Below, piece by piece: positions 18,001 through 24,000 of a DNA stretch of 64,000 nucleotides. Each line of letters starts with the position of its first letter. Within the stretch, counting starts at the first letter, position 1. The position numbers are program-made. This stretch comes from Escherichia coli (GTDB lineage Bacteria; Pseudomonadota; Gammaproteobacteria; Enterobacterales; Enterobacteriaceae): NCBI RefSeq assembly GCF_044324785.1, contig NZ_CP172127.1, one strand, 5' to 3'.

Positions 18001-21000
18001 AATAAGTTGGCATCTGGGTAACGACGGCAGCAGCAGCTATATTGAGCTTAATAACCCAACACCACTGAATATCTCTTTCACCTCCATTAGCATTGGGGCT
18101 ACGAAGGTACAGCAAGAAAGCGATATGATGATAAAACCCTTCAGTCAACGACGGTACTGGTTAGCAAGTAATAACGTTAGTGGTGTGGTTGCCGCGACAT
18201 ATCTCGATGATAATGGTGCACAGATAAAGCAACAATTAGCGCAATAATGCTCTGAGTGGTATGTAAACTCATCGCGATGGTTCAACGCTAACGAATAACC
18301 ACTATACCTACCTGAAGTACCGGAAGTGGAGAAATGACAAAATCTCTCCACTCCATTTTCCAGTCAAAACACCTCAACGCAGCCAAAAATCGTTAACGAA
18401 TTGAATATCCACCATCAATAACTAATAGTTGTCCATTGACATAATCTGAAGCGGCACTGGCGAGGAACACCATTGCGCCCATAAGATCCTGTGCCCTTCC
18501 CCAGCGTTGAGCTGGTATACGCCCTTTTATTAACTCTTTTATTTTAGGGTTATTATAAATAATCGCTGTCATTTCACTCACATAATATCCTGGGGCGATA
18601 CCATTGATCTGAATATTATATTCCGCAAAATCATCGGCATACGCTTTGGTCAGCCCCGCTAAAGCATGTTTAGTCGCAGCATACCCTGGAGACCAACGTC
18701 CCCCATGAAATGACAATACAGAACACATATTAATAATTTTCCCTTTTCTTTGCGGGACAAATATATTCAATGCGGCCTGACTCATATCGAATGCAGCATT
18801 CAGGTTGAGATTAATCATCGGATCCCAGTCGTTTCGATTGAAATCGATAGGACGATTGATGTTACACACGCCCGCGTTATTGACCAGAATATCTAACTGA
18901 CCGAAACGCTCCAGACACCTATTAATAATGGTGCATGCTGCATCAGGTTTTGTTATGTCTATTGTCATAAACTCAACTTCAACGCCTTCATGAGTTAAAT
19001 GCTTTAAATATCTATTATCAGGCTCTTTGATGTCTACCAACAACAGATTAGCCCCTGCTTTGGCCAGAGCCGAGCATAAGCCTCTCCCCAGTTCACCCGC
19101 GGCCCCAGTTACGATGGCCACCTTGTTATGTAATGAAAAAAAATCCAATGAAAAATCTTCAATAGAAAAGCTCATATCACACATTGCTCCTTATGAGTAA
19201 GTAATATTTAAGGTATAATTTAAGTAATTTTTAGATTTCAATAAAAAATATAAACGTTAAAACTCAGCATGAATAATAAACATCAAATCTTATATACATT
19301 TAATAAGTGATGTATCACGTAAAAATATAGCCATCATAGATGTTATGCAGTACGCACAAAAATACAGGCTGGATTTGCTTGCTGATCTATAATCTTTATC
19401 TAAATTACTATTGGCGCTTTGGATAATAACATAAGCATATATTACCTCCTAGCAATAATAGACATAACCTCATATCAAGGTGTCACTGGTAAATAATCGG
19501 ATAAAAGACAGTATCGGTCGGCGCATAGAGCTTCTTCTATTTCACCAGAAGTACACAGCAGGGAACTACCAATCACACGGTTAGTGTCATGGGTGGAGGA
19601 TGCGTCCCGTTCTTTCCCTATAACGGGGATACGCAGTTTTTATCAGTACATGCAGAAAAACCCCTAATTCACATCAATGCAGAAAGCATTTAATAGAAAT
19701 ATACATCGTTTAAGAATTTCAATGAAATCAAGATTATTCTTAAAAATCAGATAATTCACATTTGCATTTTTAGGAAATTATACTATAGTGCACTTAATGT
19801 TCTTGCCTTTATTTTGTAAGTAATACTGGATTTGTAATACACAACTAAGGTATAAAATGTAATGATCTACATTATAAATGATGAAGTAAGATTCAACTCA
19901 TCATCTAATAAGTTAACATCACTCCTTACATCAGAGGAAGTGATACTCACTTATCCTGCGGGAAAATGCTTAAAGTTACTTTTAGATAACGCTTATAGTG
20001 TCGTGTCACACAATCAATTCTTTGAAAAAGTCTGGAGCGATAGCAGTGCCGAAGTCGCAACCAACACTTTATATCAAAATATATCGATGATAAGGCGTTC
20101 CTTTCGTGAAATCAGCTCAGCGACGATATTTAATGATGTTATCAGAACGGTGCCACGTAAAGGCTTCAAAATCAATGAAGAAATCAACATAACTGTTCTC
20201 GACAATAATCACAATGAGAATGAAAGTGTTGAGAGCGAAGAGAGTGAAGAGAATGGCACCCACACTGAAAATATAAATAAAAATCACGTTGCAAAAGGTA
20301 TATTTACCACAAAGAATACATTACTTATAGTTTGTTTTTTTGCTGCATGGGGGATAGTGTATATATCTTCTTATTTTTTCGATATGGCTTTTCAAAGCAA
20401 ATCCCACACTATAAAAAAAATAGATGCTTTCTCAAATTATGCTCAACACCCTACTCAGGAAGGATGTAGTTATTTCTATGATAATAAATACTTTAATTCC
20501 GTAGACATGCTATCACCGATTATTGAAAAATTGCAGAAAATGGAAGTCAACTGCAAAATACATCCTTACATTTACATTGCAACAAATGATAGCATGAGCG
20601 GGTTTTATGCTTTCACCTGTAGTCAAATGTTAAACTCTGAATCACCAAATAATTGCAACTCTCTCTATTATAAAGCGGAGTAATCATATGACTCAAAGAT
20701 ATTTTCTGTTTGCGGGAATAATTTTATGTGCTTTTATTGCAGCAATTCTGAGCCATATTGCGTTTCATCATGCTAATGAACCAGCAGAGCAAAACATATC
20801 ATGTAATGCCCATGTTATTAATTTCACCGATCATACAAAAATGGATCAATATTTTTCGTTAAATATGATTTCTGAAAATAACACAGGAAACATGTATCTC
20901 ACGGGTGCATACACGGTAGATGGAAAAAAGATGGGCTTCATCCGCCGATATGTGAGTTTTACATACAAGAAATTCCGTGATACCGTTTATCTCACCACAG

Positions 21001-24000
21001 TTAAAATCCAAAAAATACAAAAAGATGATAACATTAGCGATGAAGTCCTTGAAAATATCACTTCTGATTTCTTCATAAAAGCAGACACTTCAATTAATTA
21101 TTATGTTACGCGTCAAAATGATTATAACTACGTATTCTCTACAGGCAGGACACCACGCTTCATATGTATTACTCACTAACAGCATTGTTGCTCCTGGCGT
21201 TTGTCACGAGTTAATAGCATTCTGATTGCTTTGTTTATACTTTAAGACAATAAAATACCATTCTAATATAAGGTGATTCTTTATCTGTTTATATACCACT
21301 GATAAAACTCTGTCGCTTTCATTGGTTTTGCATATAAGTATCCCTGAACTAATGTCACGTTATTATGAATAAGATATTCTGCCTGGTGAGGAGTACTGAC
21401 ACCTTCTGCAATCGTTATCAAATTTAGTCGATTACTCAGCTTAATAATAATATCTAAAACTGGCGTTTCGTCTTCCGCTGTAGTGAGTGTGTCTATAAAG
21501 CTTTTATCTATTTTAAGATAATCAACAGACAACTTTTGTAGAAGGCCAAGTGAACAATATCCCGTGCCAAAATCATCAACTGCAAATTCACAGCCATGGA
21601 TCCTTAATTCATTTATTTTCTGTAATGCAAGATCAGTATCTTCAACCAGATTGCGTTCGGTAATCTCAAGGACAATGTTAAATTTATCAGATATTGCATT
21701 TTTAATATGTAAAACATCAGCAACAAAATCAGGATGTGCAAGATGTTCCGCGGCAATATTTATCCCAAGGTGAAACGGTTTTTTCACTTTCCAGCTTTGA
21801 ACATCCTGAATAATCAGTTCAAAGAGATGCTTAGTTAACGGTATTATTAAATTTTCCTCTTCTGCAGCGCGGATAAAAACTACCGGAGATATATTTTTAC
21901 CATCTTCGCGTTGCCAGCGCATTAACGCTTCAACCCCCAGACACGCTTTGGTTGTCGTGTCGCACACTGGTTGATAATGCACAGAAAATTCTCCGGATGA
22001 CATTCCTGTTTTAATTTCTTCGGCCAGCGACATTTTCCGTGACATCCAGTGCTGCCATAAGAAATAGAGAATAAAAGAAAGAATAATAGATAACGGCAAA
22101 ATATAAAACACATTGCTAATGATATAGGGATATAACGAAATCATCGGCGTAGTAACTGTAAGACGAGCCTGACTGATCGCAGAATTAAAATCTTTTTTTA
22201 ACATATACAACCTGTCATTATTATTTACACCACTAATAATTGCAGGCCCTTCAGTAAAGCGAAGAGAAAATGAATCATCATTCTCATCATCAAGAACATC
22301 CATTAGATCATAGATATATCGTGACTCTACAATACTAAAAGCTGTCATATCATTCCCTATTGGCATAAGGAACACTATTGCTGTTTTACCTGGCACAAAA
22401 CTTGTACCGCTAATTGATACTATACGTGATTCTTTATTTTTATTGTGAAAGCTCGTACCGTAAACATCGTTAACATTCATTTTTTTGAAACCGCTAACTG
22501 AAGAACATATTTGGAAATTATTTTCTATAAGACCCGTTGTTCGAACATAGGGAGTCAATGCTCCGTTAGCAATCAATTGTTCCAGGATATCTTTGCAGGG
22601 TTTCATCACCAGAATAGAAGTAAGCTTTGTCGTATGTTTGACAATTTGCGTAACATTATCAAGCTGTTTTAACAAAATACCGGCGGTAATTGTCGTATCT
22701 CGATTCATTTGAAATATTGACATAGCAAACGATAGTAACACCCCCAGAATGCCTGGTATTATAATGAGTACAAACATTTTTTTGTTGAATACCATACATG
22801 TTTCCCCACGCATCAGGGTGATGCAACCTAAGAAATTATAGTACAATTGCCAGTAAAAGCGGGTGATAGCAGACTGATCAATGATAAGCATTTAAGATCA
22901 TATAGTACTATGATATTTCTGAAAATTGTTACCCATGTCTGCGAATAGCTATTTAGCGCTTACCAAAATCACCCGCTAAAATGCCGCTTTATGGTGACTC
23001 ACAAAAATTCACCACATCCCTCACAACCACCTTATTACGCCCGGTCTCTTTCGCCTCGTATAGTGCGTTATCAGCCAGTCGATAGATCTCATTCGGGTTT
23101 AACGCATTTTCCTGAGTCACAACAGCGCCAATACTAATCGTCACTTTTTGTGGTATGGCGTATTCAGGATTATCACCAGTTAAACGCTCAACATTTTCCC
23201 GAATCCTTTCCGCTAAAGCTTTCGCACGTTCAGTATCGATGTCCGTCAGCAAGACGCCAAACTCTTCGCCGCCGACGCGTGCTAAAAGGTCATCTGGTCG
23301 TGGGGAGAAAATGCACCAGCTCCCCAGTTGAAAGATAATCCGTCTATCTCCATTATCATTCCCTGTTTTAATGAGGAGAAAAACGTTGAGGAAACCATAC
23401 ACGCCGCTTTAGCACAGCGTTATGATAACATTGAAGTTATTGCCGTAAATGACGGTTCAACAGACAAAACCCGTGCCATCCTGGATCGCATGGCTGCACA
23501 AATTCCCCACCTGCGGGTCATTCATCTGGCGCAAAACCAGGGGAAAGCCATTGCGCTTAAAACCGGAGCTGCCGCGGCGAAAAGTGAATATCTGGTGTGC
23601 ATTGATGGCGATGCGTTATTAGACCGCGATGCGGCGGCATATATTGTGGAACCGATGTTGTACAACCCGCGTGTGGGTGCCGTAACCGGTAATCCTCGTA
23701 TTCGAACACGTTCTACCCTGGTGGGTAAAATTCAGGTTGGCGAGTATTCCTCAATTATTGGTTTGATCAAGCGAACCCAGCGTATCTATGGAAACGTATT
23801 TACCGTTTCTGGTGTTATTGCCGCATTTCGTCGCAGCGCCCTGGCAGAAGTGGGTTACTGGAGTGACGATATGATCACCGAAGATATTGATATTAGCTGG
23901 AAGCTGCAGTTGAATCAGTGGACGATTTTTTACGAGCCACGGGCGCTGTGCTGGATATTAATGCCTGAAACGTTAAAAGGGCTGTGGAAACAGCGCCTGC

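What the first reader, a model, noticed from the sequence alone, without database searches (positions are those of the whole stretch)
19862..21179. ToxR/ToxS-like two-gene membrane signalling module
A winged-helix regulator with one TM helix and a Cys-containing periplasmic domain is followed 5 bp later by a small single-TM periplasmic protein, the architecture of ToxRS, TcpPH and VtrAC. Such modules sense periplasmic or bile signals and control virulence genes. By context this may correspond to the GrvA regulator of EHEC OI-47, with the downstream partner gene, to my knowledge, unstudied.
Basis: partly seen in the sequence, partly recalled or inferred. Interest (0 to 1): 0.45.

Follow-up and report, generated by a model that had tools for sequence, protein, structure and literature searches.

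The report
GrvA/FidL membrane sensor-regulator gene pair
The two genes are real and are the E. coli GrvA regulator plus its FidL-like partner, a ToxR/ToxS- or VtrA/VtrC-type membrane signalling pair that a 2022 paper already described, so the reading is correct but not new.

Summary
Both ORFs are at the stated coordinates: 19862-20683 (273 aa) and 20688-21179 (163 aa), same strand, 4 nt apart rather than 5.

ORF1 is the GrvA orthologue, 97% identical to Sakai ECs_1274. It has a ToxR-like winged-helix domain, one TM helix and a periplasmic domain with four invariant Cys.

The pairing is conserved. All 18 intact GrvA-like regulators found in other Enterobacteriaceae are followed at once by a FidL-family gene. 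Both genes are under purifying selection (dN/dS about 0.1).

Kinch et al. (PNAS 2022) already list GrvA/FidL as a VtrA/VtrC-like "co-component" cassette and modelled the complex. I found no experimental work on the partner gene.

Minor new points: the locus lies in a non-O157 E. coli, and a direct repeat in the grvA promoter is conserved in Pseudocitrobacter.

The parts
19731..19757 (+). Direct repeat AGATTATTC-N9-AGATAATTC in the grvA promoter. It is a candidate activator site (RcsB and/or GrvA itself). The first copy overlaps an RcsAB-box-like sequence on the minus strand, TAAGAATAATCTTG at 19729-19742.
   Evidence: It is the only occurrence in the 64-kb window (0.09 expected). The Pseudocitrobacter-like orthologue L003 has the same repeat at the same distance from the ATG (-130 there, -131 here), inside otherwise poorly conserved intergenic DNA. 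It is absent upstream of the paralogous regulators. The RcsAB-box match has 3 mismatches and is not significant on its own. Function is inferred.
19755..19784 (+). Predicted sigma-70 promoter of the grvA-fidL operon (-35 TTCACA, 18-nt spacer, -10 TATACT).
   Evidence: Consensus scan gives 10 of 12 matches. The -35 hexamer is conserved in L003. This is a prediction only. The scan found fewer such sites in the region than in shuffled sequence.
19862..20683 (+). grvA orthologue, a membrane-anchored ToxR-family transcription regulator of 273 aa. Layout: winged-helix domain aa 25-103 (nt 19934-20170); acidic linker aa 108-150 with a 3-aa ESE insertion relative to O157; TM helix aa 154-172 (nt 20321-20377); periplasmic domain aa 176-273 (nt 20387-20680) with Cys202, Cys231, Cys253 and Cys265.
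   Evidence: ORF and domains. Identity to Sakai ECs_1274 grvA is 97%. The four periplasmic Cys are invariant in 25 regulators that are 21-52% identical. dN/dS is 0.084. The fused AF2 model gives strand-strand-helix-strand-strand-strand for this domain at pLDDT 80-92.
20676..20679 (+). GGAG ribosome-binding site for the partner gene, inside the last codons of grvA and 8 nt before the ATG. This arrangement suggests translational coupling.
   Evidence: Read directly from the sequence. In relatives the two genes are 5 nt apart or overlap by 8-11 nt.
20688..21179 (+). FidL-like / YqeJ-family partner of 163 aa. Layout: N-terminal TM helix aa 3-29 (nt 20694-20774); periplasmic 8-stranded lipocalin-like barrel aa 36-163 (nt 20793-21176); Cys39 in the first strand and Cys160 in the last.

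Best explanation
This is the grvA-fidL operon of an OI-47-type genomic island, here in a non-O157 E. coli. It is a VtrA/VtrC- or ToxR/ToxS-type 'co-component' signal transduction cassette.

Shown here:
- GrvA has a cytoplasmic ToxR-like winged-helix domain, one TM helix, and a small periplasmic domain with four invariant Cys.
- The translationally coupled downstream gene encodes a single-pass protein whose periplasmic part is an 8-stranded lipocalin-like barrel of the VtrC/ToxS fold, with a conserved Cys pair joining the first and last strands.
- The two genes are inherited together and both are under purifying selection.

Inferred by analogy with solved VtrA/VtrC and ToxR/ToxS complexes:
- The two periplasmic domains form an obligate heterodimer in which the regulator's beta-sheet completes the partner's barrel.
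- The barrel binds a hydrophobic gut cue, such as a bile salt or fatty acid.
- Partner binding and ligand binding stabilise GrvA against proteolysis and/or promote its oligomerisation, so that the membrane-tethered DNA-binding domain activates its targets.

From the literature on O157:H7: grvA is activated by RcsB. GrvA raises LEE expression indirectly by lowering GadW/GadE, and it represses glutamate-dependent acid resistance.
For: Identity:
- 97% and 96% identity to Sakai ECs_1274 grvA and ECs_1273, with identical gene order: CSS-EAL phosphodiesterase, fidL, grvA, SDR, fimbrial operon, two-partner secretion genes, fatty-acid/polyketide genes.

Regulator:
- Trans_reg_C domain.
- ToxR DNA-binding domain is the best PDB match by sequence, E 4e-7 single and 4e-18 profile.
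- One TM helix.
- Four periplasmic Cys invariant in 25 homologues.

Partner:
- AF2 pLDDT 95.1.
- The seven best Foldseek hits among 350,542 PDB chains are ToxS (8u2f, 8alo_B) and VtrC (5kev, 5kew, 8dml).
- The Cys39/Cys160 pair is conserved across 90 family representatives.

Coupling:
- 4-nt gap with the RBS inside grvA.
- 18 of 18 intact regulators found by a regulator-only search in nine other enterobacterial genera are followed at -10 to +17 nt by a FidL-family ORF.
- 4 of 5 distant FidL-family genes have the regulator directly upstream.

Complex:
- A fused periplasmic construct with a 21-pair alignment gave pTM 0.77 although 40 of its 262 residues are disordered linker or tail.
- Kinch et al. 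report a confident GrvA/FidL complex model with a VtrA/VtrC-like interface, and report that the YqeI/YqeJ periplasmic domains form dimeric complexes when co-expressed (PMC9214523).

Mechanism precedent:
- The ToxS bile pocket folds properly only when ToxS is bound to ToxR (PMC10624426).

GrvA phenotypes: PMC10877973 and PMC6393859.
Against: - I found no experiment on the partner gene. The ligand, the heterodimer and the stabilisation step are all inferences.
- The partner has no sequence-detectable similarity to ToxS or VtrC, even with a 90-sequence profile. The Pfam-A copy available to me gave no hit at all. The link to ToxS/VtrC therefore rests on fold and gene context.
- The fused-chain pTM has no scrambled-pair control, and I had no PAE or contact output.
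- Kinch et al. themselves say the relation of the non-Vibrio cassettes to lipid binding is 'less clear'.
- No terminator was found after fidL. Co-transcription is inferred, not shown.
Confidence: 0.78

Rival explanations
1. The partner is only a protective chaperone. It binds the GrvA periplasmic domain and shields it from regulated proteolysis, as TcpH does for TcpP, but binds no small-molecule signal. Signal input would then come only through transcription of the operon, for example RcsB and bicarbonate.
For: All published signal input to GrvA is transcriptional, through RcsB. Kinch et al. call lipid binding in the non-Vibrio cassettes 'less clear'. The fold and pairing data fit a purely structural partner equally well.
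Against: In both solved relatives, VtrC and ToxS, the barrel binds bile salts: 5kew and 8dml are ligand complexes, and ToxS has a bile pocket (PMC10624426). TcpH protection of TcpP is itself promoted by a dietary fatty acid (title of PMC11323476). A closed barrel kept across 105 sequence clusters with low identity is typical of ligand-binding lipocalin-like folds; this last point is inference.
Confidence: 0.15
2. The cassette is a horizontally acquired, H-NS-silenced remnant with no present function in this strain.
For: The region is very AT-rich: 34% G+C against 48.9% for the window. The island is partly decayed nearby: a 6.25-kb deletion of dgcT'-pgaAB-'pgaC in the window, and usher and EAL frameshifts in the closest strain, N3. 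Some relatives have decayed partners or regulators (L017, L027, L031). About 10 of the 410 E. coli carriers hold only part of the locus.
Against: Both genes are intact. dN/dS against O157 is 0.084 and 0.118, with dS of 0.07-0.13. 400 of 410 carriers hold at least 80% of the locus. In O157, a grvA deletion has transcriptome and acid-resistance phenotypes.
Confidence: 0.05
3. The two genes are functionally independent, and the small protein is an unrelated secreted or lipid-anchored lipocalin that merely shares an operon.
Against: 18 of 18 regulators are followed by the partner gene, with overlapping or near-abutting reading frames. There is no lipobox or signal-peptidase site, and AF2 models aa 3-29 as one continuous helix. 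VtrC and ToxS score twice as high as Blc. The fused-domain pTM is 0.77.
Confidence: 0.02

Closest known systems
GrvA / FidL (ECs_1274 / ECs_1273; grvA is z1531 in EDL933) of E. coli O157:H7 O-island 47
   Same: Orthologous. The proteins are 97% and 96% identical, with the same 4-nt spacing and the same neighbours: CSS-EAL phosphodiesterase on one side, SDR oxidoreductase and a chaperone-usher fimbrial operon on the other.
   Different: The host is not O157. The closest complete genomes are E. coli N3, an ivory-gull isolate, and pig ETEC and O169:H41 strains, at about 99%. GrvA carries a 3-aa ESE insertion in its acidic linker plus 4 substitutions, and the partner has 6 conservative substitutions. 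The flanking dgcT-pgaABC region carries a 6.25-kb deletion.
YqeI / YqeJ (E. coli K-12 b2847/b2848, ETT2 remnant) and MarT / FidL (Salmonella SPI-3)
   Same: Paralogous cassette with the same architecture. YqeI is 32% identical (E 5e-39) and YqeJ 23% identical (E 1e-18). The four Cys of the regulator and the two Cys of the partner are conserved. According to Kinch et al., the YqeI/YqeJ periplasmic domains form dimeric complexes when co-expressed.
   Different: yqeI and yqeJ overlap by 8 nt, whereas grvA and fidL are separated by 4 nt. Genomic context and targets differ. I did not compare MarT/FidL sequences here; their relationship is taken from PMC9214523 and PMC10877973 (30% identity is reported for MarT).
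VtrA / VtrC bile-salt receptor of Vibrio parahaemolyticus (PDB 5kev, 5kew, 8dml)
   Different: 9-12% sequence identity and no HMM-detectable similarity. According to Kinch et al., VtrA lacks the periplasmic disulfide, whereas GrvA has four invariant Cys. The ligand of GrvA/FidL is unknown.
ToxR / ToxS of Vibrio cholerae and V. parahaemolyticus (PDB 8alo, 8u2f; ToxR DNA-binding domain 8b4b)
   Different: Not orthologous. The partner is 5-14% identical to ToxS, and the periplasmic domains have no detectable sequence similarity.

Membership tests
GrvA/FidL orthologue group (O-island 47 cassette) | High identity to named Sakai grvA (ECs_1274) and ECs_1273, in conserved synteny | tested here: met
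   97% and 96% protein identity. The gene order matches ECs_1272-ECs_1289.
[quoted passage not shown] 2022) | [quoted passage not shown] | tested here: met
   Pfam Trans_reg_C, E 4e-11. The best PDB sequence match is the ToxR DNA-binding domain, E 4e-7 single and 4e-18 profile.
[quoted passage not shown] 2022) | A single TM helix between the DNA-binding domain and a C-terminal periplasmic domain | tested here: met
   The only hydropathy peak is at aa 152-173. Topology is inferred from the need for a cytoplasmic DNA-binding domain and from four invariant Cys after the TM helix. It was not tested experimentally.
[quoted passage not shown] 2022) | Regulator periplasmic domain with the VtrA/ToxRp alpha/beta fold | tested here: inconclusive
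[quoted passage not shown] 2022) | Partner gene directly adjacent on the same strand, abutting or overlapping, and conserved with the regulator | tested here: met
   4-nt gap with the RBS inside grvA. 18 of 18 intact regulators in other genera have the partner at -10 to +17 nt. 4 of 5 distant partners have the regulator upstream.
[quoted passage not shown] 2022) | Partner is an N-terminal TM helix plus a periplasmic 8-stranded lipocalin-like barrel of the VtrC/ToxS fold | tested here: met
[quoted passage not shown] 2022) | The periplasmic domains form an obligate heterodimer | tested here: inconclusive
   The fused two-domain construct gave pTM 0.77, but without PAE, contacts or a scrambled control. 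The published AF complex model is cited from PMC9214523. There is no biochemical evidence for GrvA/FidL.
[quoted passage not shown] 2022) | Binding of a periplasmic ligand (bile salt or lipid) that switches regulator activity | not testable with these tools
   Known for VtrAC and ToxRS (PDB 5kew, 8dml; PMC10624426). For GrvA/FidL the ligand is unknown.
FidL / YqeJ protein family (Pfam PF27292 YqeJ_C, PF15941 FidL_like) | Sequence membership | tested here: met
   BLASTP to K-12 YqeJ gives E 1e-18. The 96%-identical cluster P0001 carries precomputed PF27292 and PF15941 hits, and the 56%-identical orthologue carries PF27292. A family HMM built here scores the window protein at 1e-46. Caveat: the Pfam-A copy in profile_search returned no hit.
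FidL / YqeJ protein family (Pfam PF27292 YqeJ_C, PF15941 FidL_like) | Conserved Cys pair on the N-terminal and C-terminal barrel strands (the disulfide described by Kinch et al.) | tested here: met
   C39 is invariant and C160 at least 90% conserved in 90 representatives. They lie in the first strand (37-47) and the last strand (155-162) of the model. Disulfide formation itself was not tested.
ToxS or VtrC proper (orthology by sequence) | Detectable sequence homology to ToxS or VtrC | tested here: not met
   phmmer and a 90-sequence profile against all PDB sequences find neither, even at E up to 10. Structural alignments show 5-14% identity. It works like ToxS/VtrC, but it should not be filed as either.

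The most novel reading that the evidence does not exclude
The FidL-like barrel is the real signal receptor of the GrvA pathway. It would bind a gut lipid or bile component, so GrvA's known effects on LEE and acid resistance would be gated by a periplasmic cue in addition to RcsB.

The cassette's ancestral direct targets would be its own promoter and the co-inherited neighbours, not LEE. The neighbours are the chaperone-usher fimbrial operon with the SDR gene, and in E. coli also the CSS-EAL c-di-GMP phosphodiesterase.

The evidence allows this reading:
- The fimbrial-SDR-grvA-fidL block is syntenic in a Pseudocitrobacter-like genome.
- The cassette occurs in E. coli strains that are not named as EHEC, including ETEC1738 and an O169:H41 isolate. 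I did not check whether these carry LEE.
- A direct repeat at the grvA -35 region is conserved across genera.

I found no copy of that repeat at the neighbouring promoters. The neighbour-target part therefore has no direct support.
Probability: 0.3. Interest if true: 0.45.

Novelty: already known. Interest (0 to 1): 0.2.

Why it matters
GrvA is a published regulator of EHEC attachment (LEE) and acid resistance. Every experiment reported in the papers I could read treats it as a stand-alone protein.

The sequence, fold and co-inheritance evidence indicates it is half of a two-protein membrane sensor. Its partner probably determines GrvA's stability or the signal it responds to. That idea was published computationally in 2022, so this finding adds confirmation rather than discovery.

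The practical value is as a pointer. grvA deletion or overexpression phenotypes should be re-examined with fidL taken into account. The cassette is also present in about 7.5% of complete E. coli genomes (410 of 5426), including strains not named as EHEC, which is wider than a 2024 review states.

Tried and rejected
- **Pfam-A scan of the partner:** no hit even at E 10. The family (PF27292) appears to be newer than the library copy I could use.
- **NCBIfam scan:** only sub-threshold response-regulator, CadC and HilA hits for the regulator, and nothing meaningful for the partner.
- **Word-indexed homologue search of the partner:** only 8 close relatives. The full HMMER search was needed to reach the wider family.
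It worked only with a 4-regulator alignment.
- **Sequence search for ToxS or VtrC in the PDB:** negative with both a single sequence and a profile.
- **RcsAB-box consensus search:** the grvA promoter site has 3 mismatches, and such matches are as common as chance across the window.
- **Search for the conserved promoter repeat at neighbouring operons or at paralogue promoters:** none found.
- **Intrinsic terminator after fidL:** none by pattern scan, and folding gives z = -0.15.
- **Morgan et al. 2016 (PMC4719443), the main GrvA paper:** not held. GrvA biology is therefore cited from reviews.
- **Lipoprotein or secreted-lipocalin reading of the partner:** rejected, because there is no lipobox or AXA site and the N-terminal helix is continuous in the model.

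
Full report
**1. Observation**

They are 4 nt apart (TCAT), not 5. A GGAG ribosome-binding site lies inside the last codons of the first gene.

The first protein has:
- a Pfam Trans_reg_C winged-helix domain at aa 25-103, E 4e-11;
- a single hydrophobic segment at aa 152-173;
- four Cys after that segment, at 202, 231, 253 and 265.

The second protein has one N-terminal hydrophobic segment (aa 5-27). It is preceded by Arg4 and followed by acidic residues. It has no lipobox and no signal-peptidase motif (read from the sequence).

The region is 34% G+C against 48.9% for the window, so long open frames are not expected by chance. Both genes show purifying selection relative to the O157:H7 alleles: dN/dS 0.084 and 0.118, with dS 0.07-0.13.

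**2. Identity**

A megablast of the locus finds it in 410 of 5426 complete E. coli genomes, once per genome.
- The best match is strain N3, at 99.2-99.5%.
- O157:H7, O55:H7 and O145 strains match at 96.4-97.7%.

In O157:H7 Sakai the matching genes are ECs_1274, annotated grvA, and ECs_1273, annotated "FidL-like protein". They also have a 4-nt spacing. Protein identities to the window are 97% and 96%.

The surrounding gene order matches O-island 47: fatty-acid/polyketide genes, a two-partner secretion pair, a chaperone-usher fimbrial operon, an SDR oxidoreductase, grvA-fidL, and a convergent CSS-motif EAL phosphodiesterase.

Differences from O157:
- a 3-residue ESE insertion in GrvA's acidic linker, plus four substitutions;
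- six conservative substitutions in the partner;
- a 6,250-bp deletion next door that removes the 5' part of dgcT, all of pgaA and pgaB, and the start of pgaC.

**3. What the two proteins are**

*Regulator.* Among all PDB sequences, the best match of the DNA-binding domain is V. cholerae ToxR. The E-value is 4e-7 with the single sequence and 4e-18 with a profile of seven regulators. PhoB-family proteins (7.6e-10) and CadC (1.9e-8) score lower.

*Partner, by sequence.* It has no sequence match in the PDB and no hit in the Pfam-A copy available to me. Precomputed annotations for its close relatives give PF27292 (YqeJ_C) and PF15941 (FidL_like). It is 23% identical to K-12 YqeJ (E 1e-18), and GrvA is 32% identical to YqeI (E 5e-39).

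*Partner, family size.* A full HMMER profile search of 1.84 billion representative proteins found 105 clusters, nearly all 150-170 aa long. In a 90-sequence alignment that is 19-47% identical to the window protein, Cys39 is invariant and Cys160 nearly so.

*Partner, by fold.* AlphaFold2 with that alignment gave a confident model: pLDDT 95.1 and pTM 0.80. It has a helix at 3-29, eight strands and one short helix.
- Foldseek against 350,542 PDB chains returned only ToxS (8u2f, 8alo_B) and VtrC (5kev, 5kew, 8dml) in its first seven places.

Cys39 lies in the first strand and Cys160 in the last. This is the position of the disulfide that Kinch et al. describe for this subgroup.

**4. Is the pair conserved together?**

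I tested this from both directions.

Starting from the partner:
- A 56%-identical orthologue, annotated FidL in Pseudocitrobacter, keeps the block usher, adhesin, chaperone, SDR, regulator, partner. There the two genes overlap by 8 nt.
- Four of five distant family members have a 260-306-aa winged-helix gene directly upstream.
- One, in Citrobacter amalonaticus, has none called.

Starting from the regulator alone:
- A scan of 100,044 species genomes returned 20 loci.
- In all 18 with an intact regulator, a FidL-family ORF begins within -10 to +17 nt of the regulator's stop. The genera are Yokenella, Trabulsiella, Enterobacter, Phytobacter, Kosakonia, Escherichia, Citrobacter, Leclercia and Buttiauxella.
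- The two exceptions are a contig end and a truncated regulator.

Across 25 pairs, the regulator's four periplasmic Cys and the partner's two Cys are always present, except in one frameshifted partner.

**5. Do the periplasmic domains bind each other?**

I could not run a multimer prediction. As a substitute I fused GrvA 176-273 to FidL 30-163 through a (GGGGS)6 linker and supplied 21 paired sequences.

The model had pTM 0.77 and both domains at pLDDT 80-96, although 40 of the 262 residues (linker and N-terminal tail) were below 50. Such a pTM is hard to obtain unless the relative placement of the two domains is confident. I had no PAE or contacts and no scrambled-pair control, so I rate this as suggestive only.

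**6. Mechanism**

*Shown here:* the domain architecture, the fold of the partner, the co-inheritance, and selection on both genes.

*Inferred from VtrA/VtrC and ToxR/ToxS:*
- The regulator's periplasmic sheet completes the partner's barrel. In V. cholerae, the ToxS bile pocket folds properly only when ToxS is bound to ToxR (PMC10624426).
- The barrel binds a hydrophobic gut signal.
- The complex controls GrvA's stability and/or oligomerisation, and so controls DNA binding from the membrane.

*From the literature on O157:H7:*
- RcsB activates grvA.
- GrvA raises LEE expression indirectly by lowering GadW/GadE.
- GrvA represses glutamate-dependent acid resistance in exponential phase (PMC10877973, PMC6393859).

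The main rival is that the partner only protects GrvA and binds no ligand. I cannot exclude this.

**7. Comparison with what is known, and novelty**

Kinch et al. (PNAS 2022, PMC9214523) searched for exactly this architecture. [quoted passage not shown] They show that FidL, YqeJ and related proteins share the disulfide and are related by profile comparison. They also present an AlphaFold model of the GrvA/FidL complex with a VtrA/VtrC-like interface.

My analyses reproduce their conclusions independently, so the finding is already known. Searches for the locus tags, FidL, YqeJ and "co-component" returned no functional study of ECs_1273. The main GrvA paper (PMC4719443) is not held, so I could not check whether it mentions the downstream gene.

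**8. Small additions**

(a) *Distribution.* A 2024 review says grvA is exclusive to O157:H7, O55:H7 and O145:H28. The alleles closest to this window are in isolates labelled ETEC1738, O169:H41, an ivory-gull isolate and pig isolates.

(b) *Promoter repeat.* The grvA promoter holds a direct repeat, AGATTATTC-N9-AGATAATTC, at 19731-19757.
- It is unique in the window, with 0.09 expected by chance.
- It is conserved in sequence and position (-131 here, -130 there) in the Pseudocitrobacter-like orthologue, while the rest of the intergenic DNA has diverged.
- It overlaps the predicted -35 hexamer and a weak RcsAB-box-like match.
- It is a candidate RcsB or autoregulatory site.

(c) *Neighbours.* CSS-EAL phosphodiesterase genes sit next to FidL-family genes in three other loci. 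The fimbrial-SDR-grvA-fidL block is syntenic across genera. This hints at local targets, but I found no shared motif at the neighbouring promoters to support it.

**Verdict**

The system is already described in the literature, so interest is low. The open question is experimental: what the FidL-like partner senses, and whether GrvA depends on it.

Noticed in passing
window 23294-23301 (junction); flanks 22989-23402 (-) and 23328-24443 (+): A 6,250-bp deletion relative to O157:H7, with an 8-nt overlap at the junction. It removes the 5' two-thirds of dgcT (ycdT), all of pgaA and pgaB, and the first ~176 nt of pgaC. This strain should not be able to make or export PGA polysaccharide. Strain N3 has the same structure.
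   Followed up: partly
window 19731-19757 (+): Direct repeat AGATTATTC-N9-AGATAATTC overlapping the predicted -35 of the grvA promoter. It is unique in the window and conserved in sequence and position in a Pseudocitrobacter-like orthologue (L003, -130 from the ATG), while the surrounding intergenic DNA has diverged. Candidate RcsB or GrvA operator.
   Followed up: partly
window 21281-22891 (-); L007 4486-6009; L009 1204-2774; L012: The convergent neighbour is a CSS-motif EAL c-di-GMP phosphodiesterase, the counterpart of Sakai ECs_1272. CSS-EAL genes also lie next to FidL-family genes in Citrobacter amalonaticus, a metagenome contig and Yokenella. This recurrent association is unexplained.
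   Followed up: partly
window 12290-19184; L003 1-4393: The block of chaperone-usher fimbrial operon, SDR oxidoreductase and grvA-fidL is syntenic between E. coli and a Pseudocitrobacter-like genome. The cassette may travel with the fimbrial operon and possibly regulate it. The usher is intact in the window (851-aa open frame) but frameshifted in the closest strain, N3.
   Followed up: partly
window 20222-20248 (GrvA aa 121-129): A 9-nt in-frame insertion adds Glu-Ser-Glu to the acidic Ser/Glu-rich cytoplasmic linker, relative to O157:H7 GrvA. This linker and the TM segment are the fastest-evolving part of the protein (dN/dS 0.82 against the 52%-identical orthologue).
   Followed up: partly
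search over complete E. coli genomes: The grvA-fidL locus is in 410 of 5426 complete E. coli genomes. Carriers include isolates labelled ETEC1738, O169:H41, an ivory-gull isolate and pig isolates. A 2024 review states it is exclusive to O157:H7, O55:H7 and O145:H28. About 10 genomes hold only part of it (for example OZ197100, where the match covers only the fidL and EAL-gene end of the query).
   Followed up: partly
L007 3533-4483 (Citrobacter amalonaticus); L031 3156-3491 (Enterobacter sp. EA-1); L017, L027: Decayed relatives of the cassette: a FidL-family gene with no regulator called upstream, a truncated regulator with no partner, and two frameshifted partners.
   Followed up: no
window 19857-19864: The grvA start codon is preceded by an overlapping two-codon start-stop, ATGTAATG (ATG-TAA, then the grvA ATG). 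The start-stop ATG lies 5 nt downstream of the AAGG Shine-Dalgarno and the grvA ATG 10 nt. It is not conserved in the Pseudocitrobacter-like orthologue.
   Followed up: no
L030 (contig CAKVEW010000085.1, labelled uncultured Clostridium sp. MAG): A 2.5-kb contig binned as Clostridium carries the E. coli chaperone-SDR-grvA segment, with 100% identity over the first 37 GrvA residues. This is probably a mis-binned E. coli contig.
   Followed up: no
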